Under the pieces are notes generated by a model that saw nothing but the letters and a program-made list of their open reading frames with translations, was not told the DNA's origin and made no database searches. Positions 6,747 to 22,193 of a DNA stretch of 64,000 bases are shown here, in pieces. The position numbers and the translations under genes are program-made. Positions within the stretch are counted from its first letter, which is position 1. Every line of letters begins with the position of its first letter. This DNA is from an uncultured Anaerolineales bacterium (GTDB lineage: Bacteria > Chloroflexota > Anaerolineae > Anaerolineales > UBA11858). Location: NCBI GenBank assembly GCA_964629085.1, contig CAZVPR010000009.1, forward strand, positions 2,119 through 66,118. Reading direction: 5' to 3'.

Positions 6747-6762
6747 AATTCGTTTGGTTTTT

Positions 6763-6793
6763 GGTAGGGGAAGTGTATCCTCCTTCCCCTACC
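6763..6793 (+). promoter_or_regulatory. Intercistronic stem-loop after the SBP gene
   Basis: GGTAGGGGAAG (6763-6773) / CTTCCCCTACC (6783-6793) form a perfect 11-bp stem with a 9-nt loop and no T-tract. Placement between SBP and permease genes is typical of mRNA-stabilising hairpins. Confidence 0.5.
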
Positions 6794-6840
6794 ACCCTCA
6801 AAAATATCCGTTTATCCACGAGTAATTCCCGAGAGTAACT

Positions 6841-7785
6841 ATGACCGCACAAACTCACGCAGAAAAAATTCCCCGGCGAAGGCGCGGTATTCAACTCACC
6901 GAACGGCATTTGCCCCTGGCGCTATTATTTCCAAGTATTCTCATTATCCTGTTGATCGTTGGTTTCCCGATGATCTATTCATTGTATGTCAGTTTCACCA
7001 ACTTCAACCTGACCTCACCGGGGAATGTCGACTTTATCGGTTTCAAGAACTACATCACCCTGTTCACGGATGATCCGCTCTTCTGGAAGTCCTTTGGACG
7101 CACCATTCTCTTTATCAGTCTGGCGGTAAACCTTGAGTTTCTCTTGGGGCTTGGCATCGCACAACTGATGGCGAAGGTCATTCGGGGGCAAGGCCTGGCG
7201 CGCACATTGATGATGACACCGATGATGTTCGCACCCATTCTGGTGGGTTTTCAGTTCAAGTGGTTCTTCAATGCTCAGGTGGGTTTGGTTAACAACATAC
7301 TCTATACTCTCACCGGGGAGCCGAATTTTATCCCCTGGTTGATCGATAAACCTCTAGGATTTATTTCCATTTTGATCGCTGAGATCTGGATGAGTACGCC
7401 CTTTATGGTGATCATCCTCGAAGCGGGTATTCTTTCCTTGCCGGTAGAACCCTTTGAAGCGGCCGAAGTTGATGGAGCCTCGGGTTGGCAGAAATTCCGC
7501 CACCTGACGCTGCCGATGTTGATGCCCTTTGTTTATACAGCCATGGCCATCCGTTCCCTGGATATCGCCAGGGCCTACGATGTCGTCAGCATCATGACGG
7601 GAGGGGGGCCAGGCAACCGTACGGAATTGATCTGGACTTATGTAAACCGCCTGGCGTTCAGCAGCAAACAATTTGGTCTTGGGTCTGCGATGTCCTTTGT
7701 CACCGTGATCCTCAGTTTTACTTTTACATATATGTTCTTTAGCAATGTCCTCAAAAGCCGTTGGGCAGGAGGTAGTGACGAATGA
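6841..7785 (+). CDS. ABC sugar transporter permease (MalF/CUT1 type)
   Basis: 314 aa with multiple TM segments. Has the EAA-like loop (..EAAEVDGASGWQKFRHLTLP..). Confidence 0.9.
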   Translation: MTAQTHAEKIPRRRRGIQLTERHLPLALLFPSILIILLIVGFPMIYSLYVSFTNFNLTSPGNVDFIGFKNYITLFTDDPLFWKSFGRTILFISLAVNLEFLLGLGIAQLMAKVIRGQGLARTLMMTPMMFAPILVGFQFKWFFNAQVGLVNNILYTLTGEPNFIPWLIDKPLGFISILIAEIWMSTPFMVIILEAGILSLPVEPFEAAEVDGASGWQKFRHLTLPMLMPFVYTAMAIRSLDIARAYDVVSIMTGGGPGNRTELIWTYVNRLAFSSKQFGLGSAMSFVTVILSFTFTYMFFSNVLKSRWAGGSDE

Positions 7786-8678
7786 GTGCACTTGCCACAC
7801 ACAAACGACGTAACCAGCGCAATCGCTGGCGAGATACCTTCAACGACATACTATTGTGGGTGATCCTGTTCATCTTTTTCGTTCCTGCGCTTTGGATTAT
7901 CCTGACTTCCATTCGCATTCGTAACGAAATCAACGCTCATCCGCCTGTGTGGATTCCCAAAGGCTTTACCCTGGATTCGTACAAAATCTTGTTTGGCATG
8001 CCCACCCCGGATGGTGCGTTTGGCATGGGCGGTTCGATCCCTATCGCCGATTACGCCACGAATTCAATCGTCATCGCGTTGGTCAGCACCATATTTGCGC
8101 TGATTTTTGGAACCTTGGCCGGATATGTCTTTTCTCGATTCAATTTCAAAGGTAAGAACGGCATTTTCTTGGGGATGATGTTGGCCCGAGCTGTCCCCGG
8201 TATTGCCTTGAGTTTGCCGCTTTTCATCATGTACGCCCGGGTAAAGATTTCCGACACGATCTTTGGCATGATCATCACCTATGTGGCTCTAAATATCCCC
8301 TTCACGGCCTGGCTGATGGACGGCTTCTTCCGGGCTATTCCCAAGGAACTGGATGAGGCGGCGCGCATTGATGGCTGTTCGGCTTGGAGCGCTTTCGTCC
8401 GCATAGACCTGCCTTTGGCATTGCCTGGCGCCGCCGCGGCGGGTATCTTTGCCTTCTTGACCTCCTGGAACGAGTTTGCCTTGTCGAGCATTATTACCCG
8501 CACGCCGTCTTCGCGGACGTTCCCACCGGCGCTGTTTGAGTTCACCGGTCAATTTGTTTCCGACTGGCGCGGTATGACGGCCATGTCGGTCTTGATGCTG
8601 ATCCCGGCGATAATCTTCGTGGGAGTCATCCAGCGCCAGTTGTTGGAGGGCCTGACCTCGGGCGCCACGAAAGGATAA
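7782..8678 (+). CDS. ABC sugar transporter permease (MalG/CUT1 type)
   Basis: 298 aa. EAA loop (..DEAARIDGCSAWSAFVRIDLP..). ATGA start/stop overlap with the upstream permease. Confidence 0.9.
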   Translation: MSALATHKRRNQRNRWRDTFNDILLWVILFIFFVPALWIILTSIRIRNEINAHPPVWIPKGFTLDSYKILFGMPTPDGAFGMGGSIPIADYATNSIVIALVSTIFALIFGTLAGYVFSRFNFKGKNGIFLGMMLARAVPGIALSLPLFIMYARVKISDTIFGMIITYVALNIPFTAWLMDGFFRAIPKELDEAARIDGCSAWSAFVRIDLPLALPGAAAAGIFAFLTSWNEFALSSIITRTPSSRTFPPALFEFTGQFVSDWRGMTAMSVLMLIPAIIFVGVIQRQLLEGLTSGATKG

Positions 8679-10136: not shown

Positions 10137-11948
10137 ATGAGTACAGACCAAATGAAATCCAATCCACCTCGCAACCGCCTGGTTGGAGAGATGCCCAAAA
10201 TTGGTATCCGACCCACCATTGACGGTCGCCGTAAAGGTGTGCGCGAATCGCTTGAAGACCAAACCATGAACATGGCCAAAAATGTGGCCGCTTTCCTGAG
10301 TGAAAACCTACGTCATGCCAATGGTACTCCCGTCGAATGCGTGATTGCCGATACCACCATTGGTGGCGTGGCTGAGGCTGCTCAATCCGCGGAGAAATTT
10401 GCCCGAGAAGGTGTGGGCGTTTCTTTAACAGTCACGCCTTGCTGGTGTTACGGCTCGGAAACTATGGATATGGACCCCCTGACTCCGAAGGCTGTCTGGG
10501 GCTTCAACGGCACCGAGCGACCCGGAGCGGTCTACCTGGCGGCCGTGATGGCGGGGCACAGTCAAAAAGGGCTTCCGGCTTTCAGCATCTATGGCCGTGA
10601 TGTACAAGACAACGATGATACGAGCATCCCCGAGGATGTCCAGGAGAAGCTGCTGCGTTTTGGGCGCGCCGGTTTGGCAGTCGCCACCATGCGAGGTAAA
10701 TCCTACCTCTCGATGGGCGGCGTATCCATGGGCATTGCCGGGTCGATTGTCGATCAGGACCTATTCGAAGAATTCCTGGGAATGCGTGTTGAGTCGGTCG
10801 ACATGACTGAATTTACTCGTCGTTTCAATGAAGAAATATACGATCCCGAAGAATTTGAAGTGGCTCTAAAATGGGTCAAGGAAAACTGCCCCGAGGGTAA
10901 AGACTACAATCCTCCCGAAGATGAGCAAAGCCGTGAGCAAAAGGATGCCAACTGGGCGACCTCTGTCAAGATGGCGCTGATCGCCCGAGATCTGATGGTC
11001 GGCAATCCGCGCCTGACCGAGTTGGGCTATGGTGAGGAGGCCATGGGGCGCAATGCCATTGCAGGCGGCTTCCAGGGTCAACGGCAATGGACGGATCACT
11101 ACCCCAACGGTGATTTCATGGAAGCGATCTTGAATACTTCCTTCGACTGGACGGGTATTCGAGAGCCCTATATTGTAGCCACCGAAAATGATGCTCTGAA
11201 CGGCATTTGTATGCTGTTTGGCCAGCTGCTGACCGGCACCGCCCAGATCTTTGCCGATGTTCGCACCTACTGGAGTCCAGAAGCGGTCAAACGTGTCAGC
11301 GGCTATGACCTGGAAGGTAAGGCGGCCGGTGGAATTTTGCATCTGATCAATTCTGGCCCCGCAGCGTTAGATGGCACCGGCCAGCAAGAGATCGATGGCA
11401 AACCGGCCATGAAGCCTTATTGGGAGATCACGGCTGAGGAGGCGAAAAGCTGTCTCGAAGCCACCAGTTGGCACGCTGGAATTACAGAATATTTCCGTGG
11501 CGGCGGTTGGTCGACCAAATATAAAACCCAGGGCAGAATGCCGGTGACCATGTGCCGGATAAACCTGATCAAGGGTTTGGGACCGGCGCTGCAGATTGCC
11601 GAAGGCTATTCCGTTGAACTGCCCGAGGATGTACACTTCACCCTCGATGAGCGCACCAATCCCACCTGGCCGACAACCTGGTTTGCGCCCAACCTGACCG
11701 GCCAAGGACCCTTCCGCGATGTCTACACTGTTATGGCCAATTGGGGAGCCAATCATGGCTCGATTTCTTACGGTCATATCGGCGCCGATCTGATCACATT
11801 AGCCTCGATGCTGCGAATTCCGGTTTATATGCACAATGTGCCCGCAGAGCAAGTGTACCAACCGCATGCCTGGGCAGCCTTTGGTGCTAATGAACCCCAA
11901 AGTGCAGATTTCCGGGCTTGCGCGAGCTTTGGTGCTTTATACGCGTGA
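10137..11948 (+). CDS. fucI: L-fucose isomerase
   Basis: 603 aa. Length and N-terminus ([22 protein letters not shown]...) match FucI. AAGGAGA RBS. Confidence 0.9.
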
Positions 11949-12078: not shown

Positions 12079-13563
12079 ATGACCTCATTTGCAGCAATTG
12101 ACCTGGGTGCTGAAAGCGGCCGCGTGATGCTCGGCTCGTTGAAGGGCAAAAATCTTAAACTGAAAGAACTTCATCGTTTTTCGAATGGTGGTGTCCGCCT
12201 TGGAGAAAGTTTGCAGTGGGATGTCTTGCGACTTTGGAGTGAGATCAAGAATGGCTTACAATTTGCTGGTCAAGAACCGGGGATTGATTTGAAAAGTGCC
12301 GGGCTTGATACCTGGGGCGTAGATTTCGGTCTTTTGGCCGCGGATGACTCACTGTTAGGTAATCCCTATCATTATCGTGACGGCCGCACAGATAGCATGC
12401 TGGAAGAAGTTTTTTCTCGGATTCCTCAGTGGGAAATCTATCAATGTACCGGTATCCAGTTTATGCAGCTCAACAGCCTGTATCAGCTTTTCGCAATGGC
12501 TCAGGCTAAATCGCCACAGCTTTCACTGGCCAAGCGATTTTTGAACATGCCAGACTTGCTAAACTTTTTTATGACAGGCCGAAAAGCCAATGAGTTCACT
12601 ATCTCGACAACTACGCAATGTTACGATCCCATTAAGAAAGATTGGGCTTTTAATCTTCTTGAGAACCTGGACATTCCAGGAGAGATTTTTGGTGAGATCG
12701 TACCTTCTGGGACAGTATTAGGGGAATTGCGCGCCTCAATTGCTCAGGAATTAGGATTATCCCAATTATCTGTGGTAGCCAGTGCTGGCCATGATACGGC
12801 CAGCGCGGTTGCGGCGGTGCCCGCCGTTCCGGCGTCGACACAAGATTTCATTTACCTTAGCTCTGGGACCTGGTCTTTATTAGGTGTAGAACTCGACCAA
12901 CCCATGATCACCCGAGAGAGCATGAATGCCCCCATGACCAATGAGGGTGGCGTTGGTGACAAGATCCGTTTCTTGAAGAATATTGTCGGGTTATGGTTGA
13001 TTCAGGAGTGTCGCAGAAATTGGGGTACCCATGGAAAAAACTATAGCTACGATGATCTGAGCAGTATTGCTGCCCAGGCTGCTCCCTTTGGGTCCTTAGT
13101 AAATCCGGATGATTCCCGCTTCTTGGCTCCAGATGAGATGCCTAAGGCTATTCAAAGTTATTGCCAGGAAACCGGTCAAACCGTTCCATTAACCCATGGG
13201 GAAATCGTACGTTGCGTGCTGGAAAGTCTGGCCATGGAATACCGTTGGGTGGCTGAGCAAATCGATCAACTGACAAAAAAACATCATCCTGTGATCCATA
13301 TCATTGGTGGTGGTTCGCAAAACAAGCTGCTCAATCAATTTGCAGCCAATGCCACCGGGCGGACAGTTATTGCCGGCCCAGTGGAGGCTACCGCGATTGG
13401 CAATGTCTTGGTTCAGGCAATTGCCATGGGTGAAATCGGTTCGCTGGCAGAAGGACGCGGGATTGTAAAAGGCTCGTTTGCTGTAGAGACATATCAGCCA
13501 GTTGATACTGGAGCCTGGGATGATGCTTATCAAGGTTATATAGACCTGAAAACGAGAAAGTAA
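12079..13563 (+). CDS. FGGY-family sugar kinase, rhamnulokinase-like (L-rhamnulose/L-fuculose kinase)
   Basis: 494 aa. N-terminus AAIDLGAESGRVMLG..LHRFSNG resembles E. coli RhaB (VDLGASSGRVML..IHRFNNG). Sits between fucI and a FucA-like aldolase. Confidence 0.85.
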   Translation: MTSFAAIDLGAESGRVMLGSLKGKNLKLKELHRFSNGGVRLGESLQWDVLRLWSEIKNGLQFAGQEPGIDLKSAGLDTWGVDFGLLAADDSLLGNPYHYRDGRTDSMLEEVFSRIPQWEIYQCTGIQFMQLNSLYQLFAMAQAKSPQLSLAKRFLNMPDLLNFFMTGRKANEFTISTTTQCYDPIKKDWAFNLLENLDIPGEIFGEIVPSGTVLGELRASIAQELGLSQLSVVASAGHDTASAVAAVPAVPASTQDFIYLSSGTWSLLGVELDQPMITRESMNAPMTNEGGVGDKIRFLKNIVGLWLIQECRRNWGTHGKNYSYDDLSSIAAQAAPFGSLVNPDDSRFLAPDEMPKAIQSYCQETGQTVPLTHGEIVRCVLESLAMEYRWVAEQIDQLTKKHHPVIHIIGGGSQNKLLNQFAANATGRTVIAGPVEATAIGNVLVQAIAMGEIGSLAEGRGIVKGSFAVETYQPVDTGAWDDAYQGYIDLKTRK

Positions 13564-13565
13564 TT

Positions 13566-14222
13566 ATGGTACAGAGTGAATATCGCTTGCGCCAGGAAAT
13601 AGTGCGTGTGACGCGCATCGTTGCCAACCAGGGCCTGGTGCGCTCTAGTGATGGAAATATTTCCATTCGGTTGGAAGCAGATCGATTTCTGGTCACCCCG
13701 AGCGGCCTTTATAAAATGGCGATGGAACCGGATGATCCGATTATTGTGGATTCGTCTGGAACCGTATTGGTGGGTAAACCCGGTTTGCGACCGACTTCAG
13801 AAATCAACATGCATTTGGAAGCTTACCGACAAAGACCGGATATTCAGGCAGTTTTACATGCACATCCTCCCTTTGCCACGGCTTTAACAATTGCTGAACG
13901 CTCATTTCCTACCGACTATTTACCTGAGGTGTTGATTGCTTTAGGCGATGTGCCTATCGCTGGTTATGGCACCCCTGGGACGCCGCAATTAGGCGAAAGT
14001 ATTCGCGAATTGATCAAAGATCATAATGTGGTTTTGCTCAGTCATCACGGCAGTCTCAATGTGGGAAAAACCCTGGAAGAGGCGCTAATTTCCCTGGAAC
14101 GATTGGAGCACGCCGCTTACACATATTGCTTAGCGCACGGCCTGGGTAATCCTATCCCGCTGCCGGAAAAAGAGTTGCTGAATTTGCGAGAAATTGGGAA
14201 GAACTTGAGTCAAGGATCTTAA
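13566..14222 (+). CDS. fucA: Class II aldolase/adducin family, L-fuculose-1-phosphate aldolase-like
   Basis: 218 aa, which is FucA-size. Motifs SDGNISIR..VTPSG and LHAHPPFATAL. Starts 3 nt after the kinase stop. Confidence 0.75.
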   Translation: MVQSEYRLRQEIVRVTRIVANQGLVRSSDGNISIRLEADRFLVTPSGLYKMAMEPDDPIIVDSSGTVLVGKPGLRPTSEINMHLEAYRQRPDIQAVLHAHPPFATALTIAERSFPTDYLPEVLIALGDVPIAGYGTPGTPQLGESIRELIKDHNVVLLSHHGSLNVGKTLEEALISLERLEHAAYTYCLAHGLGNPIPLPEKELLNLREIGKNLSQGS

Positions 14223-14228
14223 CTATGT

Positions 14229-14259
14229 GAAGTTCAACTTACATATAAAGTTGAACTTC
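14229..14259 (+). terminator. Hairpin after the aldolase gene
   Basis: GAAGTTCAACTT (14229-14240) / AAGTTGAACTTC (14248-14259) form a perfect 12-bp stem with a 7-nt loop and no clear T-tract. Confidence 0.4.
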
Positions 14260-14289
14260 TACCTGGTAAGCAAACCTTAGACACAGGAA

Positions 14290-14461
14290 TTACGCAGTTT
14301 GCATCCTGCCCTTACAGGATGCTTGGCGAAGTGGTCCCCGCCGAAGGCGTGCCGTTGGCAAGGGACTGTATCGAGCATGCGACTGGGAGAAAATTGCATC
14401 CTGAGTAGCCAGAGGCGTATCGAAGGGCCAATATTCTCCTGAAAAGCTCTCAACTGCGTAA
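14290..14461. mobile_element. MITE-like structured repeat, copy 1 (172 nt)
   Basis: Terminal inverted repeat TTACGCAGTT (14290-14299) / AACTGCGTAA (14452-14461). Internal hairpin GCATCCT-GCCCTTAC-AGGATGC. A second copy lies at 60887-61067 and a short fragment (CAGGATGCTT core) near 12030-12050. The ORFs drawn over it (14290..14487 -, 60838..61101 +) are not credible genes. Confidence 0.6.
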
Positions 14462-14511
14462 CGCTTAAGACAATACCAAAGAAGCAAAAATCTTGATTTG
14501 GAGAAATTTTT

Positions 14512-16329
14512 ATGAATGGTTGGACGAAAAAATTAATACGAGTAGATTTGACTACCAGAAAAACATCGGTCGAAGAGATCGATGATCAAATCTTGCATCA
14601 ATACCTGGGGGGGAGAGGTTTAGGAACTTTCCTGGTATATTCTGAAGTATCACCAGACATCGACCCCCTCGGTCCAGAGAACCTGCTGGCTTTTTGCACG
14701 GGCTCTATGACTGGTCTGCGCGTTCCCACGGGAGGGCGTTCCAGTATGAGCACGCTCTCTCCGTTGACTGGCACAGTATTTGATGCCAACTCAGGTTCAC
14801 AATTTGGTGTGCGCTTGCGCTGGGCTGGATATGATGCCTTGGTAGTCAGTGGCCAAGCCAGCGAACCGGTTTGGCTGGAAATAGATTTGGAGGGTGCCAA
14901 AATTCATTCGGCTGAGGATTTGTGGGGACAGGAAATCCCCGAAACTGTCGAAAGCCTTAAATCGCAGGCCAAAACCAAGGGATCAGCCGTGGTTAGCATC
15001 GGTCCCGCGGGCGAGTACCAAGTTCTGTTTGCTGCCATCGCCGATGAAAAAGGGCGCTGCTTCGGACGTGGTGGAGTCGGCGCTGTGATGGGTTCCAAGA
15101 ATCTCAAAGCGATAGTAGCCCGTGGTAAAGATAAGCCTGGGATTGCCGACACCAAAATTTTTGATTTTGTGAATTATGAAGCCAGCAAAATGGTCAACGC
15201 TTCGCCACGAACATCGCAAGGTTTGCCGGAGTTCGGCACCTCGGTGCTGGTCAATTTGATGAACTGGTATGGTGTCTTGCCCACAAATAACTTTCAGCTT
15301 GGTGAATTCGCAGGGGCAGACAAAATTTCGGGAGAGCGATTGCGTGATGAATACCTTACAAAACGCGGCGCCTGCTGGGGTTGTCCCATTGGCTGTAAGC
15401 GCAATACCAAAACCGAACGCGAAACAGGTGAAGGTCCAGAATATGAGACCATCTATGCCCTGGGGTCATCCTTGGGCATAGATGATTTTGATGCTGTCAT
15501 AGAGGCTAACTACTTGTGCAATCGCCTGGGTATGGATACGATCTCTTGCGGCGCTACGATTGCCTGCGCCATGGAGCTGGCTGAACGCGGTTTGCTTGAT
15601 ACAGAATTGGCCTTTGGACGCGCCGATTTGCTCCTGCAGACCGTCGAAGATATCGCTCATCGTCGTGATCTGGGTGACGAACTTGCTCAAGGCTCCAAGC
15701 GACTGGCCGAAAAATACAATGCTCAGGAAACTGCAATGCAGGTCAAAGGGCTCGAATTTCCGGCGTATGATCCCCGAGGCATGCAAGGGCAGGGATTGTT
15801 ATACGCCACGTCCAATCGTGGTGCCTGCCACTTGCGTGGTAACATGCTCGGGCCGGAACTGCTCGGCTCGCCAAAAATGTTGGATCGCCATGCTTCCTCT
15901 GGAAAAGCAGGCATCTTAATCGTGATGCAGCATAGTAACGCCGTGATCGATTCGATTGGTATGTGCAAATTTGTTAATTTTGCTATTGGTGATGATTTCT
16001 TTGCGCGTATGATGAGTTCTGTTACCGGTGTGGATTATGAAGTTCAAGATTTACAACTGGCCGGTGAGCGCATCTGGAATTTGGAGCGACTTTACAACCT
16101 TCGGGCGGGATTCAGCGCCTCTGACGATACCTTGCCTCCCAGGTTCCTGGAACAACCCCTCAAAGAGGGCGGCAGCGCCGGGCATGTAGTTCAACTGGAA
16201 GAGATGTTGGCAGAATATTACCGTTTCCGTGGATGGACGCCTGAAGGCGAACCAACAGACAAAAAATTATCAGCTTTGGGCCTCACTAAATTAGGCGCAA
16301 AGTATTCGGAGGCACGCAGTCATGCTTGA
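14512..16329 (+). CDS. aor: Aldehyde:ferredoxin oxidoreductase (AOR family, tungsto/molybdopterin + [4Fe-4S])
   Basis: 605 aa. N-terminus GWTKKLIRVDLTT..YLGGRGLG is the AOR N-domain signature. Has a Cys cluster (CWGCPIGC). GGAGAAA RBS. Confidence 0.9.
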   Translation: MNGWTKKLIRVDLTTRKTSVEEIDDQILHQYLGGRGLGTFLVYSEVSPDIDPLGPENLLAFCTGSMTGLRVPTGGRSSMSTLSPLTGTVFDANSGSQFGVRLRWAGYDALVVSGQASEPVWLEIDLEGAKIHSAEDLWGQEIPETVESLKSQAKTKGSAVVSIGPAGEYQVLFAAIADEKGRCFGRGGVGAVMGSKNLKAIVARGKDKPGIADTKIFDFVNYEASKMVNASPRTSQGLPEFGTSVLVNLMNWYGVLPTNNFQLGEFAGADKISGERLRDEYLTKRGACWGCPIGCKRNTKTERETGEGPEYETIYALGSSLGIDDFDAVIEANYLCNRLGMDTISCGATIACAMELAERGLLDTELAFGRADLLLQTVEDIAHRRDLGDELAQGSKRLAEKYNAQETAMQVKGLEFPAYDPRGMQGQGLLYATSNRGACHLRGNMLGPELLGSPKMLDRHASSGKAGILIVMQHSNAVIDSIGMCKFVNFAIGDDFFARMMSSVTGVDYEVQDLQLAGERIWNLERLYNLRAGFSASDDTLPPRFLEQPLKEGGSAGHVVQLEEMLAEYYRFRGWTPEGEPTDKKLSALGLTKLGAKYSEARSHA

Positions 16330-16951
16330 TCAATTTCAGCGTTTTGGACACGATTTATTTATGCGCGGTCTGACCTCCTCGCATGGCGGCAATATGAGCG
16401 TGCGCATGGGCGACCGAATTTTCATTACAAGGACCGGTGCAATGCTGGCCCACATGACGGAAAAAGATATCATCGAAATTGGCCTGGATGAGGATGATAG
16501 CAATATCATGTTGGCATCCAGTGAACTGGTTGTTCATCGTGAAATCTACCAGAAGACGCCGGCCCTGGCCATTGTGCATGTGCACCCGCCGCATGCGGTG
16601 GCAATATCGATGGCCGTTGAAGATGCCATCATTCCCATCGATAGCGAAGGGTCGTATTTGTTCCGCAAAGTTCCTGTAGTACAAACTGAAAAAACCGTCG
16701 GTTCGAAAGAAGCTGCCAAAATTGCCGCCGAAATGCTGGGAGAATACAAGATCTTTATGCTGCGCGGCCATGGCTGTTTCTCGATTGGGCCTGTGCTGGA
16801 GGAAGCTTACCAGTGGTGTTCGAGTCTGGAAGAATCCTGCAAAATGTATTACCTCACCCGAACACTACAGGCAGCCGAGGCAGCCATTTCGCAAGGGGGC
16901 CTGGGCGATCTAGAATATCGTAAACACACTGGCGATTACGATACCTGGTAA
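16322..16951 (+). CDS. Class II aldolase/adducin family protein (second copy)
   Basis: 209 aa. Motifs SHGGNMSVR..ITRTG and VHVHPPHAVAIS. Overlaps the AOR stop by 8 nt, suggesting translational coupling. Confidence 0.8.
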   Translation: MLDQFQRFGHDLFMRGLTSSHGGNMSVRMGDRIFITRTGAMLAHMTEKDIIEIGLDEDDSNIMLASSELVVHREIYQKTPALAIVHVHPPHAVAISMAVEDAIIPIDSEGSYLFRKVPVVQTEKTVGSKEAAKIAAEMLGEYKIFMLRGHGCFSIGPVLEEAYQWCSSLEESCKMYYLTRTLQAAEAAISQGGLGDLEYRKHTGDYDTW

Positions 16952-17233
16952 TCAAGAAAATTAATGAGCAAGTCAGGGATTCAGGAAAGCGGTTTTCGAT
17001 TCTTAGGATCCTGGTTTCCTTATCGCCAAAAAACTCGTGTCAGAAAAATATTCTTGATAATATATGTGCGACGCACTTAGTTGCAGAGTGAGCAACCTGG
17101 CAATGACTTTGCACAAGTGCGTTGCACCTTGACCCTGTATCCTTGAAAATGTGAGTTTTATCAAGGCTGCCATAACCCTCCATACTTGGTAAAATCTAAG
17201 TTGCAAACAACGAAGTCTAAGGAGAAATGTAAT

Positions 17234-18193
17234 ATGAAGAAAGCGTTAGTATGTGGGGCGGGTGGTTTTATCGGTGGACATCTGGTAAAGAAACTGAAAC
17301 GAGAAGGTTATTGGGTACGAGGGGTTGATATCAAAAAACATGAATTCGCCACAACTCAGGCGGATGATTTTCTGCTTTTGGATCTCAGAGAGGAAGATAA
17401 TTGTAATGCTGCGCTGACTGTTGGTGATGGTACTTTTGACGAGGTCTATCAATTGGCGGCAGATATGGGCGGCATGGGTTTCATCCATTCAGCCGAATGT
17501 GAGATCATGCGCAACAGCGCCCTGATCAATGTTCACATGACGCATTTCGCCTCGAAAATGGGCGTACCGCGTTATTTCTTTTCATCATCGGCCTGTGTTT
17601 ACCGTGACATGCAGCCCGGTGAAGAAGCCCTGACCGAAGATGAAGCTTATCCTGCTTTGCCAGACAACGAGTACGGTTGGGAAAAGCTCTATGCCGAGCG
17701 CATGGCTTACGCCTATATGCGCAACCAGGGCATGCAGGTGCGTGTGGCGCGCTTCCAGAATTGCTATGGCCCAGAAGGTACCTGGGATGGTGGGCGAGAA
17801 AAAGCCCCAGCAGCCATCAGCCGAAAGGTGGCCATGGCTGAAGATGGCGGTACCATTGATGTTTGGGGGGATGGCACTGCGATTCGCGCCTACACCTATG
17901 TCGATGATCTGGTGGATGGTATTTACATGTTGATGCAATCCGATTGCCAGGAGCCCGTCACCATTGGGACGACCGAATTTACTACCGTGGATGATCTGGT
18001 TCACCGAGTCAGTGAAGCGGCAGGCAAGCATATCGAGATCAATCATATCGATGGGCCGGTGGGTGTACAGGCTCGCATATTGAACAAGGATCGCATCCAT
18101 GCATTGGGTTGGGAGGCGCAGTACACCTTCAAAGAGGGCATTGCCATCACCTATGCCTGGGTTGAAGAACAAGTAAAAAATTCCGGGAAATAA
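17234..18193 (+). CDS. GDP-mannose 3,5-epimerase-like NAD-dependent epimerase (extended SDR)
   Basis: I moved the start to the ATG at 17234, 6 nt after an AAGGAGAAA RBS; the listed 17186 start has none. GAGGFIG Rossmann motif. Blocks LAADMGGMGFI, SSACVY, YGWEKL, RFQNCYGPEGTWDGGREKAPAAISRK and WGDGTAIRAYTYVDD align by eye with plant GME. Confidence 0.8.
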   Translation: MKKALVCGAGGFIGGHLVKKLKREGYWVRGVDIKKHEFATTQADDFLLLDLREEDNCNAALTVGDGTFDEVYQLAADMGGMGFIHSAECEIMRNSALINVHMTHFASKMGVPRYFFSSSACVYRDMQPGEEALTEDEAYPALPDNEYGWEKLYAERMAYAYMRNQGMQVRVARFQNCYGPEGTWDGGREKAPAAISRKVAMAEDGGTIDVWGDGTAIRAYTYVDDLVDGIYMLMQSDCQEPVTIGTTEFTTVDDLVHRVSEAAGKHIEINHIDGPVGVQARILNKDRIHALGWEAQYTFKEGIAITYAWVEEQVKNSGK

Positions 18194-18217
18194 AATTCAG
18201 ATTGCGAGGGTAGCAAC

Positions 18218-19381
18218 ATGAGTTTAAAAGATGAGAGTGCCAGGAAAAAAGTTATTGTCAGTGGTTGTTACGATTTGTTGCACAGCGGCCATATTGCCTT
18301 CTTTCGGGAAGCATCGACTTATGGGGATTTGCATGTTGCTCTGGGCTCCGATCAAACAGTCTATGATTTGAAGGGACGTTTGCCGGTCAACAACGAAGAG
18401 GAGCGCCTCTTCATGGTCAAATCGGTGAACTATGTCAAGGATGCCTTCGTTTCTCAGGGATCTGGCATGTTGGATTTCTTGGAGGAATTCGAGCAGCTAA
18501 AACCAGATATCATGGTTGTGAACACGGAAGGCAGTGTTTACGAAAAGCAGCAATTGTGTGAGCAATACGGCGTTGAATACATCATATTGGAGCGAGAGCC
18601 GCATGCCGGCCTGCCGCGCCGTTCGACCACGTCATTACGGACCGTAAACCAAATGCCATTTCGAATAGACATTGCCGGAGGTTGGTTGGATCAACCTTAT
18701 GTGTCGGAGCACTATCCCGGTTCTGTGATCACCATTTCTCTCGAGCCGACGATCCAGTTCAACGAGCGCAGCGGTATGGCCTCCAGCACTCGCCGGGCGG
18801 CCATTGATATGTGGGGGCCAAAACTGCCACCAGGTGATCCGGAAAAAATTTCCAAGATCTTGTTCTGTTATGATAACCCGCCCGGCACCAAGGTGATTTC
18901 AGGTTCGCAAGATGCCATTGGTTTGGTGTTTCCTGGGTTGGCCAAAGCGCATTATGTCGGTGAATATTGGCCGACGCGTATCGAGCGGGTAATGGACGAA
19001 GCAACGCTGCAGTTTGTTGAGAATTCTTTTTATCTGATCACCCTCGGGCCGCGCCATGCCGAATATGATGTTTTAGATAACACCGATTTCAGCCACGAAA
19101 AGGCCAAAGCCCTGGCCGATGCTACCGATGAGTGCTGGCAAGCCATCCTGGCGCATGATATTAATTCCTTTGGCGAGGCCTTTCGAGCTTCCTTCGAAGC
19201 GCAGATTGCCATGTTCCCCAACATGATGAACCCCTCAGTTGCCGAACTAATTGAACAATATCGCGATCGGGCTTTAGGTTGGAAATTGTCTGGCGCTGGC
19301 GGAGGTGGCTATCTGATCCTGGTTTCTGATGAACCCATTGAGAATGCAACCCGGATATTAGCCCGCAGAGTAAACGGATAA
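18218..19381 (+). CDS. Fusion protein: cytidylyltransferase-like nucleotidyltransferase (N) + fucokinase/HddA-like GHMP sugar kinase (C)
   Basis: 387 aa. The N-terminal ~145 aa resemble TagD/RfaE-domain-II (VSGCYDLLHSGHIAFF ... RRSTTSLR). The C-terminal ~240 aa carry GHMP landmarks: RIDIAGGWLDQPY (GGW(S/T)D of fucokinases), SGMASST, GSQD and KLSGAGGGGYLILV. Confidence 0.7.
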   Translation: MSLKDESARKKVIVSGCYDLLHSGHIAFFREASTYGDLHVALGSDQTVYDLKGRLPVNNEEERLFMVKSVNYVKDAFVSQGSGMLDFLEEFEQLKPDIMVVNTEGSVYEKQQLCEQYGVEYIILEREPHAGLPRRSTTSLRTVNQMPFRIDIAGGWLDQPYVSEHYPGSVITISLEPTIQFNERSGMASSTRRAAIDMWGPKLPPGDPEKISKILFCYDNPPGTKVISGSQDAIGLVFPGLAKAHYVGEYWPTRIERVMDEATLQFVENSFYLITLGPRHAEYDVLDNTDFSHEKAKALADATDECWQAILAHDINSFGEAFRASFEAQIAMFPNMMNPSVAELIEQYRDRALGWKLSGAGGGGYLILVSDEPIENATRILARRVNG

Positions 19382-19385
19382 GCGC

Positions 19386-20156
19386 ATGGAATTACCTCAA
19401 CGAGAATCTCCCCAAGGTAAGCCGGTTTCACTTTTTGTGACCTGTTTGGTGGATTTGTTGTTCCCCGATTCCGGGATGTCGGTTGTTCAGGTTTTGGAAC
19501 ATATTGGGGTGAATGTAGAATTCCCTGAGGGCCAGACCTGCTGCGGCCAACCCGCCTATAACGGGGGTTATCGAAAGGAGGCAAAAAAGGTTGCTTTACA
19601 ATTCTTGCGCACCTTTCGGGACGCCCAGGTGATCGTAATCCCCTCGGGTTCTTGCGCAGCCATGATCCGCAAAGAATACTTGACTTTATTCGCGGATGAT
19701 CCCGAATGGCTGCCGGTTGCACAACGATTATCGGCTATCACCTGGGAATTTACTGAATTCATCGTTGATGGTTTGGGCATCAGCGATCTCAATGCCCGTT
19801 TGCCGGAGCCGAAGACTTTTTCTTTCCACGATTCATGTCATGGTCTGCGCCATTTGGGGTTAGGCTCCCAGGCGCGGGAACTCGTGAGTCGTATTGAAAA
19901 TGCCAGCATCGAGGAGATGGAAGAACATGAAACCTGCTGCGGCTTTGGGGGGTTGTTCAGCATCAAGATGCCAGAACTCAGTGGTGCCATGCTTGAGAAC
20001 AAAATCAAACACATCACTGCCTCACCCGCCCAAACGGTGGTTGGTGGCGATGTCAGTTGCTTAATGCATATCAACGGCGGTCTTATTCGCCAAAAATCTG
20101 AACCAAAAGTGCAATATATCGCCGATATCCTGGCCTATGGCTTACGAGGCGAATAA
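19386..20156 (+). CDS. lutA: L-lactate utilisation protein LutA ((Fe-S)-binding, two CCG domains)
   Basis: 256 aa. CCG motifs (TCCGQPAYNGG; TCCGFGGLFS). Followed by lutB and lutC in the canonical order. Confidence 0.85.
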   Translation: MELPQRESPQGKPVSLFVTCLVDLLFPDSGMSVVQVLEHIGVNVEFPEGQTCCGQPAYNGGYRKEAKKVALQFLRTFRDAQVIVIPSGSCAAMIRKEYLTLFADDPEWLPVAQRLSAITWEFTEFIVDGLGISDLNARLPEPKTFSFHDSCHGLRHLGLGSQARELVSRIENASIEEMEEHETCCGFGGLFSIKMPELSGAMLENKIKHITASPAQTVVGGDVSCLMHINGGLIRQKSEPKVQYIADILAYGLRGE

Positions 20157-21556
20157 TGAAAATTCGCTCCAACCAATTTCAACAAGCATCTCAAACGGCT
20201 ATTGCTGATGCGGACCAACGAATTGCTGTCGACCATGGAACTGGAATTGGATTCTCAAAACGTCAACTGGCCATGTACGCAGAGGGAGATGCGCATGGAG
20301 AAGCGTTACGCAAACAAGCGGCCGCCATCAAGCGTTGGGGACTTGACCACCTGCCAGAATTATTAACCCAGGCGGAAAATAACCTGCAAGCCAATGGCGT
20401 CACAGTGCTTTGGGCTGAGGATGCGGCTGAGGCCAACCGGCATGTTTTGGATATCATCCGACAGCACGGCTTGAAGAGGGCGGTCAAAAGCAAGAGCATG
20501 GTGACTGAGGAAGTAGGGTTAAACCAGGCGCTTAATGCGCAAGGTATCGAGGTAGTAGAGACGGATCTGGGGGAATATATTGTTCAAATTAGCGACGACC
20601 TTCCCAGTCATATCGTAATTCCAGTGGTGCATCGCTCTAAGGAAAGTATTCGAGATTCTTTCGTACAGCAGGTGGACATGTCTCCGGATGTTGACACACA
20701 GGAAATGGCTCAATTTGCCCGAGAGCTTTTACGAGAGAAGTTCTTACAGGCAGATCTCGGAATATCCGGGGGCAATTTCATTATCGCTGAGACAGGGGCC
20801 TTGTGCTTAGTGACCAACGAAGGCAACGCCCGCATGGTGACCAGCCTGCCAAACGTTCACGTCGCTTTAATTGGCATCGAAAAAGTGATCGGCACATTGG
20901 AAGATTTCGCTACCCTGACGCAGGTGTTGCCGCGCAGCGCTACGGGTCAGACGATTTCTGTATACACTCATATGATCCATGGCCCACGGCACGATAATGA
21001 AGTCGATGGGCCTGAATATGTTTACGTGATCTTCGTTGACAATGGCCGCAGCCGAATTTATAACTCAAATTACGCTGAGGCTTTGGCCTGCATCCGTTGC
21101 GGTGCCTGCCTGAACGCTTGCCCTGTCTATAAAATTACGGGAGGGCATGCCTATGGCTGGGTTTATCCGGGGCCGATCGGGGCTGTGATCACACCCCTTT
21201 TGAATGGTCTGGAAAATGCCAAACCTCTGCCCAACGCCAGCAGTTTATGCGGACTGTGCAAGGATGTCTGTCCGGTGGATATAGATTTGCCTGGGATGCT
21301 GCTAGATTTAAGATATGACCTTGTTGAACAGAATCACGACCCGTCATTGTGGAAGCGAGGCTTAGCGTTGTGGGCCGCTTTTTGGGCGCATCCTGCCCTT
21401 TACGAGATAACGGGTAAGGTCGGCGCTTTGGGAAGTAATCTGCTTCCAGATAAATTGCCCGGAGTTTTGGGGGGTTGGACAAATTCCCGAACATTACCAA
21501 AATTCACGAGCAAATCATTCCGCCAGCGCTGGAAGGGGCGAGTGACGCATGAGTGA
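20156..21556 (+). CDS. lutB: L-lactate utilisation protein LutB (4Fe-4S ferredoxin-type)
   Basis: 466 aa. Motifs CIRCGACLNACPVY and CGLCKDVCPV. 1-nt overlap with lutA. Confidence 0.85.
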   Translation: MKIRSNQFQQASQTAIADADQRIAVDHGTGIGFSKRQLAMYAEGDAHGEALRKQAAAIKRWGLDHLPELLTQAENNLQANGVTVLWAEDAAEANRHVLDIIRQHGLKRAVKSKSMVTEEVGLNQALNAQGIEVVETDLGEYIVQISDDLPSHIVIPVVHRSKESIRDSFVQQVDMSPDVDTQEMAQFARELLREKFLQADLGISGGNFIIAETGALCLVTNEGNARMVTSLPNVHVALIGIEKVIGTLEDFATLTQVLPRSATGQTISVYTHMIHGPRHDNEVDGPEYVYVIFVDNGRSRIYNSNYAEALACIRCGACLNACPVYKITGGHAYGWVYPGPIGAVITPLLNGLENAKPLPNASSLCGLCKDVCPVDIDLPGMLLDLRYDLVEQNHDPSLWKRGLALWAAFWAHPALYEITGKVGALGSNLLPDKLPGVLGGWTNSRTLPKFTSKSFRQRWKGRVTHE

Positions 21557-22193
21557 CAGCCGAGATAGGATTTTTGCCAGATTGGAGAAATCTTCGGGCC
21601 CAAAATTTAATATTGAGCCAATCGATGAATATCGACCCGTGGTTTCCGTCGATGATAAAAGTTCGGAAGCGCTGCGTGAGCTGTTCATTCAAAATGCCGA
21701 ACGATTGGCCTGTTTGGTCTATCAGGTAGTTGATGAAAATGAGGCCATTCAAACTGTAATTGATTTGTTGAAGGATGCCGAAAAGGTTTCGACCTGGGCT
21801 CAAGAAGAAATCCCGTTACCAGGGTTGTTTGCTGAATTGGATGCCGCAGGAATCACTTTTTCGACGCAGGACAATCCTCGGGTTCGATATGGAATCACCG
21901 GAGCCAACGCGGCAATAGCCGCCATCGGTAGCCTGGTATTGGCCAGTGGCCTGGGGCGTTTTAGAGCTCCATCGATTTTGCCACCCAAGCATATCGCCAT
22001 ACTTGAATCCTCGAAAATTTTTGCCTCGTTGGAAAGTTGGCTGTCGGAACAGCGGAAATCAGGAATTGAAGAACTCCAAAAATCAAGTAACATTGTGTTG
22101 ATTTCGGGCCCCAGCCGCACGGCTGATATTGCCATGGAGTTGGTCATGGGGATGCATGGGCCGAAGGAATTACATATTATCCTGTTGCCTTGA
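21549..22193 (+). CDS. lutC: L-lactate utilisation protein LutC (LUD domain)
   Basis: 214 aa. Overlaps lutB by 8 nt. Position and size fit LutC; the sequence-level call is weaker than for LutA/B. Confidence 0.75.
   Translation: MSDSRDRIFARLEKSSGPKFNIEPIDEYRPVVSVDDKSSEALRELFIQNAERLACLVYQVVDENEAIQTVIDLLKDAEKVSTWAQEEIPLPGLFAELDAAGITFSTQDNPRVRYGITGANAAIAAIGSLVLASGLGRFRAPSILPPKHIAILESSKIFASLESWLSEQRKSGIEELQKSSNIVLISGPSRTADIAMELVMGMHGPKELHIILLP

What the first reader, a model, noticed from the sequence alone, without database searches (positions are those of the whole stretch)
13566..16951. Aldehyde:ferredoxin oxidoreductase sandwiched between two class II aldolases: a ferredoxin-linked lactaldehyde branch of fucose catabolism
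Seen: the gene order is fucI, FGGY kinase, FucA-like aldolase, (MITE), AOR, then a second class II aldolase overlapping the AOR stop by 8 nt. lutABC lies 2.4 kb downstream on the same strand. No FucO-type propanediol oxidoreductase or AldA-type NAD aldehyde dehydrogenase is in the locus. Established: fuculose-1-P aldolase yields DHAP plus L-lactaldehyde. The known fates of L-lactaldehyde are NADH reduction to 1,2-propanediol (FucO) or NAD-dependent oxidation to lactate (AldA). AOR-family enzymes oxidise aldehydes to acids with ferredoxin. LutABC oxidises lactate to pyruvate. Inference: L-lactaldehyde goes to L-lactate via AOR (reducing ferredoxin), then to pyruvate via LutABC. This variant of the pathway has, to my knowledge, not been described. 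The second aldolase may serve a second ketose-1-P such as rhamnulose-1-P.
Basis: partly seen in the sequence, partly recalled or inferred. Interest (0 to 1): 0.6.

Follow-up and report, generated by a model that had tools for sequence, protein, structure and literature searches.

The report
Ferredoxin-linked lactaldehyde oxidoreductase in fucose operon
An uncultured anaerobic Chloroflexota bacterium keeps a tungsten-type aldehyde:ferredoxin oxidoreductase, locked to a small aldolase, inside its L-fucose operon. Sister copies of the pair sit in L-rhamnose operons, so the enzyme probably turns the toxic lactaldehyde from these sugars into lactate using ferredoxin instead of NAD.

Summary
The + strand carries fucI, a rhamnulokinase-like FGGY kinase, a FucA-like aldolase (ald1), a 289-nt gap holding a dispersed about 175-nt repeat, and a full AOR. 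A second class II aldolase (ald2) overlaps the AOR stop by 8 nt, and lutABC starts 2,434 nt further on. The organism is an Anaerolineales bacterium.

Comparative evidence supports the reading. Every close AOR orthologue found (67-84% identity, 18 loci) is followed by ald2. Where the contig reaches upstream, it is preceded by the kinase and usually fucI. In seven loci ald2 is the only aldolase. A sister AOR clade (50-56%) with its own ald2 lies in L-rhamnose operons, twice followed by lutAB. Fucose and rhamnose breakdown share only L-lactaldehyde. Two sister genomes carry a true fucO at that point of the fuc operon instead.

No enzyme assay exists, and the substrate, the metal and the electron sink are inferred. 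The idea that ald2 serves rhamnulose-1-P is not supported. Published precedents are one MAG-based suggestion and lactaldehyde activity of Eubacterium limosum WOR1. This scan has already reported the same AOR-aldolase pair on other DNA, including across Chloroflexota.

The parts
5424..8678 (+). Sugar ABC importer: solute-binding protein 5424-6746 and permeases 6841-7785 and 7782-8678. Upstream context of the operon.
   Evidence: Pfam SBP_bac_1 and BPD_transp_1
10137..11948 (+). L-fucose isomerase FucI
   Evidence: NCBIfam PRK10991 1089 bits (cut-off 775) and TIGR01089 1041 (cut-off 850). All three Pfam fucose-isomerase domains are present.
12079..13563 (+). FGGY sugar kinase, rhamnulokinase-like. 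Inferred to be the L-fuculokinase.
   Evidence: FGGY_N and FGGY_C. Rhamnulokinase model 498.7 against 527.95; E. coli-type fuculokinase model 128.7 against 470.9. It follows fucI in the related loci.
13566..14222 (+). ald1: FucA-like class II aldolase, the ordinary aldolase of Anaerolineales fuc operons
   Evidence: Aldolase_II 165.5 bits. The best solved relatives are L-fuculose-phosphate aldolases. Orthologues at 61-65% follow fucI and the kinase in genomes without AOR. It is missing from seven related kinase-AOR loci.
14289..14462 (.). Dispersed MITE-like repeat of about 175 nt, inserted between ald1 and AOR. The limits are approximate, set by the TIRs TTACGCAGTT and AACTGCGTAA.
   Evidence: A second copy lies in the window, with 9 genome matches of 100 nt or more and partial matches in 33 places. 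It is absent from the orthologous loci, where the ald1-AOR spacer is 31-68 nt. It folds with z = -3.1.
14512..16329 (+). Aldehyde:ferredoxin oxidoreductase (AOR sensu stricto clade). Proposed L-lactaldehyde:ferredoxin oxidoreductase.
   Evidence: AFOR_N 244 bits and AFOR_C 485.7 bits. 583 bits to 1AOR over residues 4-592, against 332 to FOR, 185 to WOR5 and 159 to BamB. Cys288, Cys291, Cys295 and Cys485, plus Glu and His near the metal site, are invariant in 20 orthologues. It belongs to the fuc-linked clade in the tree.
16322..16951 (+). ald2: PRK08660-type class II aldolase, translationally coupled to AOR by an 8-nt overlap. Proposed fuculose-1-P aldolase that feeds AOR.
   Evidence: PRK08660 228.8 bits against a cut-off of 203. 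The best solved relative is Thermus thermophilus FucA 2FK5, E 4e-33. The phosphate-binding GGN-S-R motif, the catalytic Glu68 and His86, His88 and His150 are invariant. It lies directly after AOR in 16 of the 18 fuc-clade loci and about 1.8-1.9 kb after it in the other two (L028, L030), and next to AOR in the nine rha-linked loci read.
17186..19381 (+). GME/GDP-fucose-synthase-like epimerase (probably starting at 17234) and a cytidylyltransferase::GHMP-kinase fusion. These are conserved neighbours and their role in the pathway is unresolved.
   Evidence: Pfam and NCBIfam. They lie downstream of ald2 in L021, L027, L029, L033, L034, L041 and L071.
19386..22193 (+). lutA (19386-20156), lutB (20156-21556) and lutC (21549-22193): iron-sulfur L-lactate oxidation system
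   Evidence: LutB TIGR00273 460.9 against 444.8; CCG domains in LutA; LUD domain in LutC. lutA starts 33 nt after ald2 in L026. lutABC is also downstream in L027 and L041, and after the rha-linked pair in L072 and L073.

Best explanation
The locus encodes a phosphorylative L-fucose pathway whose lactaldehyde step is ferredoxin-linked. The proposed steps are:
1. An ABC importer brings in fucose.
2. FucI makes L-fuculose.
3. The FGGY kinase makes L-fuculose-1-phosphate.
4. A class II aldolase (ald1 and/or ald2) splits it into DHAP and L-lactaldehyde.
5. The AOR, a pterin-W/Mo and [4Fe-4S] enzyme, oxidises L-lactaldehyde to L-lactate and reduces ferredoxin.
6. LutABC oxidises lactate to pyruvate.

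AOR and ald2 form a fixed, translationally coupled two-gene module that has been slotted into deoxy-sugar operons. One clade sits in fuc operons and a sister clade in rha operons.

What is shown: the gene identities, the intact cofactor and catalytic motifs, the conserved synteny, the clade structure, and that a FucO/AldA orthologue was not found. What is inferred: the substrate (lactaldehyde), the direction of the reaction, the metal, ferredoxin as acceptor, and where the electrons go afterwards.
For: 1. Gene content and order are confirmed.

2. The AOR is complete, with the four cluster cysteines and active-site residues conserved against 1AOR and across 20 orthologues.

3. In genome contigs, 15 loci from Anaerolineales and other Chloroflexota MAGs carry an AOR at 71-84% identity. 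In 14 of them ald2 follows, mostly overlapping (the fifteenth is a 1.6-kb fragment holding only the AOR), and fucI and/or the kinase lie upstream in 11. Three further loci at 66-70% show kinase-AOR-ald2 with the same 8-nt overlap.

4. In a sample of 151 Anaerolineales genomes, all 4 with an AOR at 77% identity or more, counting this genome, have it 2.3-2.4 kb downstream of fucI.

5. All 7 genomes with the next tier of AOR (50-56%) have an ald2 paralogue adjacent, and 6 have a rhamnulokinase within about 3.3 kb. RhaA lies next to AOR in 5 of them; three of those RhaA genes were scored against the family model (677-694 bits, cut-off 572) and two were identified by tblastn only. One has a RhaI-like isomerase, one an alpha-L-rhamnosidase, and lutAB follows in two. 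An independent metagenome contig repeats the DeoR-kinase-RhaD-like-RhaA-AOR-ald2 order.

6. In the tree, the fuc-linked and rha-linked AORs are sister clades (SH-aLRT 100 and 100, joint 99). None of the genome's 7 other AOR paralogues falls inside.

7. There is non-orthologous displacement. G141 and G120 have ald-kinase-fucI-fucO with a true lactaldehyde reductase (643 bits, cut-off 537). Among 26 genomes only these two pass the FucO cut-off, and the other fuc-AOR genomes G011, G107 and G115 have no Fe-ADH hit at 1e-40.

8. The own genome offers little alternative.
- Its single Fe-ADH scores 215 against 523 for FucO.
- Its two NAD-ALDHs are P5C-DH-like and MMSDH-type.
- Its microcompartment locus is DeoC/RpiB (SPU-like), not a fucose type.

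9. AOR-family enzymes can oxidise lactaldehyde: E. limosum WOR1 does so in vitro (PMC11725836). lldEFG/lutABC extending lactaldehyde oxidation to pyruvate is known for RhaEW regulons (PMC3870299).
Against: - No biochemical or expression data exist for any member, and AORs are typically broad-spectrum.
- A 289-nt gap with an inserted repeat and a 12-bp hairpin separates ald1 from AOR here. A gap of about 280 nt separates ald2 from the downstream genes. Co-transcription with fucI or lutABC is therefore not shown, and the promoter and terminator scans were at chance level.
- Only 4 of 21 fucI-bearing Anaerolineales genomes sampled have the AOR, so the arrangement is a lineage-specific option.
- One complete MAG keeps the AOR-ald2 pair away from rha genes, and two related loci (L069, L070) show no fucI within 9 kb.
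- The electron sink for reduced ferredoxin is unresolved. No [FeFe] hydrogenase or Rnf was found; only two [NiFe] hydrogenase large subunits were.
- The genome is 90% complete, so a missing fucO or aldA cannot be excluded.
Confidence: 0.7

Rival explanations
1. The AOR is a broad-spectrum aldehyde-scavenging enzyme with no dedicated substrate. It sits in sugar operons only as general protection against reactive aldehydes.
For: Characterised AORs accept many aldehydes (established knowledge; WOR1 substrate list in PMC11725836). The genome has 8 AOR paralogues. The pair stands apart from sugar genes in one complete MAG.
Against: A distinct, well-supported subclade is tied to an aldolase by overlapping reading frames and to fuc or rha operons across many species, whereas the other seven paralogues are not. 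fucO occupies the equivalent operon slot in sister genomes.
Confidence: 0.12
2. The aldehyde is not lactaldehyde. The FucI/kinase/aldolase trio works on another sugar, such as D-arabinose giving glycolaldehyde, L-galactose giving L-glyceraldehyde, or a demethylated or modified deoxy-sugar. AOR oxidises that product.
For: The E. coli fuc enzymes are known to process D-arabinose and L-galactose (established knowledge). The operon also carries five URO-D-type methyltransferase paralogues, a GME-like epimerase and a fucokinase-like fusion, which hints at unusual sugars. L069 and L070 have kinase-AOR-ald2 with a ribose-type ABC importer and no fucI nearby.
Against: lutABC, which is lactate-specific, recurs next to the pair in both fuc and rha contexts. 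The sister clade sits beside bona fide RhaA and an alpha-L-rhamnosidase. Lactaldehyde is the one product common to both pathways.
Confidence: 0.1
3. Most lactaldehyde is reduced to 1,2-propanediol by an unlinked alcohol dehydrogenase, as in anaerobic E. coli. AOR handles only overflow, or runs in reverse from lactate to lactaldehyde with reduced ferredoxin.
For: The genome has one Fe-ADH (C119) with a weak likeness to lactaldehyde reductase, 215 bits. Fermenters need electron sinks, and no clear ferredoxin-oxidising system was identified. AORs of acetogens do reduce acids (established knowledge).
Against: The Fe-ADH is far below the FucO cut-off (523) and is unlinked. The other fuc-AOR genomes lack any comparable Fe-ADH. 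lutABC downstream implies that lactate is consumed, not produced for reduction. No diol dehydratase type microcompartment is evident: the one BMC locus is DeoC/RpiB-type.
Confidence: 0.08

Closest known systems
Pyrococcus furiosus aldehyde:ferredoxin oxidoreductase (PDB 1AOR) and other solved AORs (9MQX, 9G7J, Aromatoleum 8C0Z)
   Same: Same family and same subclade: 583 bits over nearly the full length. The [4Fe-4S] cysteines and active-site Glu and His are conserved. It is a single-subunit gene with no adjacent ferredoxin-like or FAD subunit genes.
   Different: Those enzymes are regarded as broad-spectrum, acting on amino-acid- or aromatic-derived aldehydes, and are not operon-linked to sugar catabolism. 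This one is translationally coupled to an aldolase inside a fucose operon, which implies a specific physiological substrate.
E. coli L-fucose pathway: FucI-FucK-FucA, then FucO (anaerobic) or AldA (aerobic)
   Same: The same first three steps and the same intermediate, L-lactaldehyde. The AldA branch likewise gives L-lactate. A true fucO occupies this slot in sister Anaerolineales.
   Different: Here the lactaldehyde enzyme is a pterin/Fe-S ferredoxin-reducing oxidoreductase rather than an NAD(H) enzyme. The kinase is rhamnulokinase-like. Two aldolases are present, and lutABC is attached.
RhaEW (YuxG): fused L-rhamnulose-1-P aldolase / NAD-dependent L-lactaldehyde dehydrogenase of Chloroflexus aurantiacus and Bacillus subtilis (Rodionova et al. 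2013, PMC3870299)
   Same: A class II-type aldolase is physically or genetically coupled to the enzyme that oxidises its lactaldehyde product to lactate. lldEFG (lutABC) sits in some of the same regulons, extending the route to pyruvate. A RhaEW gene even sits beside the rha-linked pair in L072.
   Different: RhaW is an SDR that uses NAD+. Here the oxidising partner is an unrelated AOR that uses ferredoxin, and the two proteins are separate, overlapping genes rather than a fusion.
Eubacterium limosum WOR1 (PMC11725836)
   Same: An AOR-family tungstoenzyme shown to oxidise lactaldehyde in vitro.
   Different: WOR1 is described as an electron-bifurcating enzyme using NAD and ferredoxin. It is induced on lactate, is interpreted as an aldehyde detoxifier, and is not linked to fuc or rha genes or to an aldolase.
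MAG-based suggestion for Ca. Lernaellota (Williams et al. 2022, PMC9324843)
   Same: It states that MAGs with rhamnose genes but no microcompartments encode AORs 'for detoxification of lactaldehyde', which is the same idea.
   Different: It is a one-line inference from gene presence. No operon linkage, partner aldolase, clade or lactate-oxidation link is described.

Membership tests
AOR family (aldehyde:ferredoxin oxidoreductase, AOR sensu stricto clade) | AFOR_N and AFOR_C (domains 2 and 3) architecture at full length | tested here: met
   PF02730 244 bits and PF01314 485.7 bits, 605 aa. Aligns to 1AOR residues 5-602.
AOR family (aldehyde:ferredoxin oxidoreductase, AOR sensu stricto clade) | Four cysteine ligands of the [4Fe-4S] cluster, plus Glu and His at the metal site | tested here: met
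   Cys288, Cys291 and Cys295 align to the CxxCxxxC of 1AOR, and Cys485 aligns to its fourth Cys. Glu312 and His440 are conserved. All are invariant in 20 orthologues. The residue roles are taken from the published 1AOR structure (my knowledge).
AOR family (aldehyde:ferredoxin oxidoreductase, AOR sensu stricto clade) | Closer to AOR than to the FOR, GAPOR, WOR5 or BamB clades | tested here: met
   583 bits to AOR, against 332 to FOR, 185 to WOR5 and 159 to BamB. The GAPOR model gives only 37.7 bits.
AOR family (aldehyde:ferredoxin oxidoreductase, AOR sensu stricto clade) | Tungsten (or molybdenum) bis-pterin cofactor, with ferredoxin as electron acceptor | not testable with these tools
   Only indirect evidence: three MoeA paralogues in the genome. 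No Moco/Tuco riboswitch was found in 8000-24000.
L-fuculose-1-phosphate aldolase (class II aldolase, FucA) | Aldolase_II fold with three His zinc ligands, a catalytic Glu and phosphate-binding motifs | tested here: met
   Both ald1 and ald2 hit PF00596. In ald2, Gly23, Asn24, Ser26, Arg28, Glu68, His86, His88 and His150 are invariant. The same motifs align with Thermus FucA 2FK5.
L-fuculose-1-phosphate aldolase (class II aldolase, FucA) | Score above the curated cut-off of a FucA equivalog model | tested here: not met
   ald1's best FucA model, PRK06833, gives 127.9 against 264. ald2's FucA models give 80 bits or less. ald2 passes only PRK08660, named simply 'aldolase' (228.8 against 203). Function as FucA is therefore inferred from context and from solved relatives.
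L-fuculokinase | Score above the FucK or RhaB equivalog cut-off | tested here: not met
   fuculo_kin_coli gives 128.7 against 470.9, and rhamnulokinase gives 498.7 against 527.95. It is an FGGY kinase of the rhamnulokinase-like branch. Its substrate is inferred from its position after fucI.
LutABC / LldEFG lactate oxidation system | Three subunits: LutA with CCG domains, LutB with LUD plus 4Fe-4S dicluster, LutC with LUD | tested here: met
   PF02754 x2 in LutA; TIGR00273 460.9 against 444.8 for LutB; PF02589 in LutC.
Fucose/rhamnose bacterial microcompartment (PVM-type) as the alternative way to contain lactaldehyde | BMC shell genes together with a class II aldolase and an acylating aldehyde dehydrogenase | tested here: not met
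   The only BMC locus (contig C167) has shell and EutN genes, an acylating ALDH, a DeoC-family aldolase, RpiB and GntR (SPU-like), and no class II aldolase.

The most novel reading that the evidence does not exclude
AOR and ald2 form a physical complex in which the aldolase hands L-lactaldehyde directly to the tungsten or molybdenum site. This would be a compartment-free way of containing a toxic aldehyde. It would also capture its very low-potential electrons on ferredoxin, for example for H2 production, in place of microcompartments or NAD-linked enzymes. It would define a dedicated 'lactaldehyde:ferredoxin oxidoreductase' subclade with a specific physiological substrate.

The complex prediction gave weak support only.
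- Score 0.54 (three runs, 0.52-0.56) against a best control of 0.01.
- The pass mark was reached by 58 of 80 solved complexes and 2 of 110 mismatched pairs.
- Scores of 0.60 or under were reached by only 7 of those 80 solved complexes and by both mismatches that passed.
- The runs agree in at least 90% of contacts, and the partner's pLDDT is at least 84.
Probability: 0.3. Interest if true: 0.75.

Novelty: new variant of a known kind. Interest (0 to 1): 0.6.

Why it matters
AOR-family tungstoenzymes are widespread in anaerobes, but most lack an assigned physiological substrate. A subclade hard-wired to an aldolase in fucose and rhamnose operons would give one.

It would also add a third, ferredoxin-linked fate for L-lactaldehyde, beside FucO reduction and AldA/RhaW oxidation. 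That fate would yield pyruvate plus low-potential electrons rather than excreted propanediol. This changes the predicted carbon and hydrogen budgets for Anaerolineales, which are abundant degraders of fucose- and rhamnose-rich algal, plant and mucus polysaccharides in sediments and digesters. It also predicts that deoxy-sugar use depends on tungsten or molybdenum.

The related clades are very common in metagenomes: 876 ald2 homologues at E of 1e-20 or better, and thousands of AOR hits.

Tried and rejected
- **Rfam scan** of 8000-24000 at E up to 1: nothing, so there is no Moco/Tuco riboswitch or other known RNA.
- **Promoter and terminator scan:** counts were at shuffle level, so it is uninformative about co-transcription.
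- **Literature searches:** searches combining AOR, lactaldehyde and fucose or Anaerolineae found no paper describing the operon. Two acetogen reviews mention the terms only in abbreviation lists. Two further hits were irrelevant.
- **ald2 serving rhamnulose-1-P in this genome:** rejected, because no RhaA was found and ald2 is the only aldolase in seven related kinase-AOR loci.
- **A fucose microcompartment as the real route:** rejected, because the BMC contig is DeoC/RpiB type.
- **More distant AORs at 46-48%** (Thorarchaeota, Phycisphaerae, Desulfosarcina, Hecatellales loci L035-L039): BLAST found no fuc, rha, aldolase or lut neighbours, so my own data do not extend the linkage to them.
- **Search for a cultured carrier:** the top 120 relatives of the rha-linked AOR are all metagenomic.
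- **Ferredoxin sinks:** no [FeFe] hydrogenase and no Rnf were found.
- **Careful tree:** it did not finish in the time allowed, so only the quick tree is reported.

Full report
**Observation**

- A sugar ABC importer lies at 5424-8678.
- FucI is at 10137-11948 (1089 bits, cut-off 775).
- An FGGY kinase of the rhamnulokinase-like branch is at 12079-13563 (498.7 against 527.95).
- The class II aldolase ald1 is at 13566-14222.
- A 289-nt gap follows.
- A full-length AOR is at 14512-16329.
- A second class II aldolase, ald2, is at 16322-16951.

The ATG of ald2 overlaps the AOR stop codon (ATGCTTGA) and is preceded by GGAGG. lutA, lutB and lutC run from 19386 to 22193 and begin 2,434 nt after ald2. 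A GME-like epimerase and a cytidylyltransferase::GHMP-kinase fusion lie between ald2 and lutA.

The gap between ald1 and AOR holds a repeat of about 175 nt with 10-nt terminal inverted repeats. It has a second copy in the window near 60.9 kb, 9 genome matches of 100 nt or more, and partial matches in 33 places. It is absent from the orthologous loci, where the ald1-AOR spacer is 31-68 nt. The insertion is therefore recent.

**Organism and genome background**

The window is contig C9 of a 5.39-Mb assembly of 272 contigs with 48% GC, estimated 90% complete. The closest loci in public genomes are Anaerolineales and other Chloroflexota MAGs.

The rest of the genome contains the following.
- Eight AOR-family paralogues.
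- One Fe-ADH that scores 215 bits on the lactaldehyde-reductase model, whose cut-off is 523.
- Two NAD-dependent aldehyde dehydrogenases, of the P5C-dehydrogenase-like and methylmalonate-semialdehyde types.
- Two acylating aldehyde dehydrogenases.
- One microcompartment locus. Its neighbours are a DeoC-family aldolase, RpiB, EutN and GntR, which marks it as a sugar-phosphate (SPU-like) type rather than a fucose type.
- Two other class II aldolase-family genes: an AraD-type epimerase and an oxo-tetronate-phosphate-decarboxylase-like gene.
- No RhaA.
- Three MoeA genes.
- Two [NiFe] hydrogenase large subunits, but no [FeFe] hydrogenase and no Rnf.

**The proteins**

The AOR scores 583 bits against P. 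furiosus AOR (1AOR) over residues 4-592. That compares with 332 for FOR, 185 for WOR5 and 159 for BamB. The CxxCxxxC motif, the fourth cysteine, and the Glu and His at the metal site are conserved against 1AOR. They are invariant in 20 orthologues. No ferredoxin-like or flavin subunit gene is adjacent.

ald1's best solved relatives are L-fuculose-phosphate aldolases. ald2's best solved relative is Thermus thermophilus FucA (2FK5, E 4e-33). ald2 passes the NCBIfam model PRK08660, named simply 'aldolase'. Its phosphate-binding GGN-S-R motif, catalytic Glu, three His and a conserved C-terminal EYRKH..DY..W tail are invariant or nearly so across the family. It therefore looks like an active ketose-1-phosphate aldolase.

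**Comparative genomics, fucose side**

A scan of one genome per species returned 15 loci with an AOR at 71-84% identity. In 14 of them ald2 follows, mostly with overlapping frames. The fifteenth is a 1.6-kb fragment that holds only the AOR. fucI and/or the kinase lie upstream in 11.

ald1 is absent from L023, L028, L029, L030, L032 and L033, while ald2 is kept. In L026 lutA starts 33 nt after ald2, and lutABC is also downstream in L027 and L041.

Three more metagenome contigs, with ald2 at 66-70% identity, show kinase-AOR-ald2 with the same 8-nt overlap. One of them is fucI-kinase-AOR-ald2 with no ald1.

In a sample of 151 Anaerolineales genomes, 21 have fucI. All four that carry an AOR at 77% identity or more, counting this genome, have it 2.3-2.4 kb downstream of fucI.

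The fucI genomes without the AOR show what else can fill that slot.
- G141 and G120 have ald-kinase-fucI-fucO with a true lactaldehyde reductase (643 bits, cut-off 537).
- G118 has a large NAD-aldehyde dehydrogenase next to fucI.
- Several others have only fucI-kinase-ald1.

Of 26 genomes tested, only G141 and G120 pass the FucO cut-off. The other three fuc-AOR genomes have no Fe-ADH hit at 1e-40.

**Comparative genomics, rhamnose side**

The next-best AORs in the order (50-56% identity, 7 genomes, including a congener of this organism) all have an ald2 paralogue at 48-53% identity adjacent.
- In five of them a bona fide L-rhamnose isomerase lies next to the AOR. Three were scored against the family model (677-694 bits, cut-off 572) and two were identified by tblastn only.
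- Six have a rhamnulokinase nearby, with the kinase within about 3.3 kb of the AOR.
- One has a RhaI-like TIM-barrel isomerase.
- One has an alpha-L-rhamnosidase.
- One has a RhaEW-type fused aldolase/dehydrogenase.
- In two, lutA and lutB follow the pair.

An independent JGI contig repeats the order DeoR, kinase, RhaD-like aldolase, RhaA, ThiS-like gene, AOR, ald2. One complete MAG keeps the pair away from rha genes.

A quick maximum-likelihood tree places the 15 fuc-linked and 7 rha-linked AORs as sister clades (SH-aLRT 100 each, 99 together). All seven other paralogues of this genome fall outside. The groups were labelled after selection by similarity, and the careful tree search did not finish. 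The tree therefore shows clustering, not an independent test.

**Interpretation**

L-fucose and L-rhamnose breakdown by the phosphorylative routes share one distinctive product, L-lactaldehyde. This is established for the E. coli pathways and in PMC3870299. An AOR-aldolase module that has diversified into a fuc-operon clade and a rha-operon clade is most simply read as an aldolase plus a lactaldehyde:ferredoxin oxidoreductase. Three further observations fit that reading:
- the module is repeatedly followed by the lactate-oxidising LutABC;
- it is replaced by fucO in sister genomes;
- it occurs in genomes where FucO/AldA orthologues were not found.

Lactaldehyde oxidation by an AOR-family enzyme is biochemically precedented by E. 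limosum WOR1 (PMC11725836). Extension of lactaldehyde oxidation to pyruvate through lldEFG has been proposed for RhaEW regulons.

The substrate, the direction, the metal, the acceptor and the fate of the reduced ferredoxin remain inferred. I put the main reading at about 0.7.

**Role of ald2**

The genome has no RhaA. ald2 travels with AOR and not with any isomerase. In seven related loci it is the only aldolase.

ald1 is the ordinary aldolase of Anaerolineales fuc operons, at 61-65% identity in genomes without AOR. The tight coupling of ald2 to AOR invites the idea of a physical aldolase-AOR complex that channels lactaldehyde, analogous to the RhaE-RhaW fusion.

A complex prediction gave weak support only.
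- The score was 0.54 (runs 0.52-0.56) against a best control of 0.01.
- The pass mark was reached by 58 of 80 solved complexes and 2 of 110 mismatched pairs.
- At 0.60 or under it was reached by only 7 of those 80 and by both mismatches that passed.
- The runs agree in at least 90% of contacts, and the partner's pLDDT is at least 84.

I treat the complex as the novel case (about 0.3), not as a finding.

**Novelty**

I found no paper that describes an AOR embedded in fuc or rha operons. The nearest is a one-line MAG inference for Ca. Lernaellota (PMC9324843).

Within this scan the same AOR-aldolase pair has been reported before on other DNA: Chloroflexota, Aminicenantes, Asgard and Caldivirga archaea, and a sulfate-reducer-type bacterium. 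My analysis reproduces the Chloroflexota pattern independently, but it is not a first sighting for the scan.

I class it as a new variant of a known kind: a known pathway and a known enzyme family, with a new dedicated combination and cofactor logic.

Noticed in passing
window 22900-53262 (+): A single open reading frame of 10,120 aa starts about 250 nt after the last gene of the sugar locus. Earlier notes of the scan describe beta-helical repeats and a perfect 264-nt tandem array inside it.
   Followed up: no
window 1-10044 (+): Five URO-D/MtaA-like paralogues and a creatininase-fold gene flank the ABC importer upstream of fucI. An earlier follow-up read them as a corrinoid-dependent sugar demethylase set. 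They suggest that the imported substrate may be a methylated deoxy-sugar.
   Followed up: no
window 14229-14259: A perfect 12-bp hairpin (GAAGTTCAACTT, a 7-nt loop, AAGTTGAACTTC) lies directly after the ald1 stop and before the inserted repeat. No T-tract follows. It could be an RNA processing or attenuation site.
   Followed up: partly
L041:6496-6928: The closest orthologous locus has a different insertion, about 430 nt with a long G+C-rich palindrome, at the same ald1-AOR junction. This spacer therefore seems to be a hot spot for small mobile repeats.
   Followed up: partly
L082:8731-8991 and L083:8685-8942: A small ThiS/MoaD-like gene (85-86 aa) sits immediately upstream of the rha-linked AORs. 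It may be a cofactor-maturation helper. No equivalent lies upstream of the fuc-linked AOR in the window.
   Followed up: no
L072:7913-8491 (-): The ald2 paralogue in this rha locus diverges and appears frameshifted in its C-terminal third. The same locus carries a RhaEW-type fused aldolase/dehydrogenase (1089 bits), so ald2 may be decaying where RhaEW is present.
   Followed up: partly
L076:5102-7447 (-): In genome G020 the AOR-ald2-kinase module lies divergently next to a GntR regulator, a xylose-isomerase-like TIM-barrel gene and a RuBisCO-like protein (form IV type). This hints at a further sugar-phosphate or deoxy-pentose context for the module.
   Followed up: no
G000 contig C167 (L066:1-8953): A microcompartment locus with BMC-H, three EutN-type vertex genes, an acylating aldehyde dehydrogenase, a DeoC-family aldolase, RpiB, an EutJ-like ATPase and GntR. 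This is the SPU-like (sugar-phosphate utilisation) pattern.
   Followed up: partly
window 17186-19381 (+): The GME/GDP-fucose-synthase-like epimerase and the cytidylyltransferase::fucokinase-like GHMP fusion are conserved downstream of ald2 in at least seven related loci. This is odd for a catabolic operon. They may form a nucleotide-sugar salvage or epimerisation branch.
   Followed up: partly
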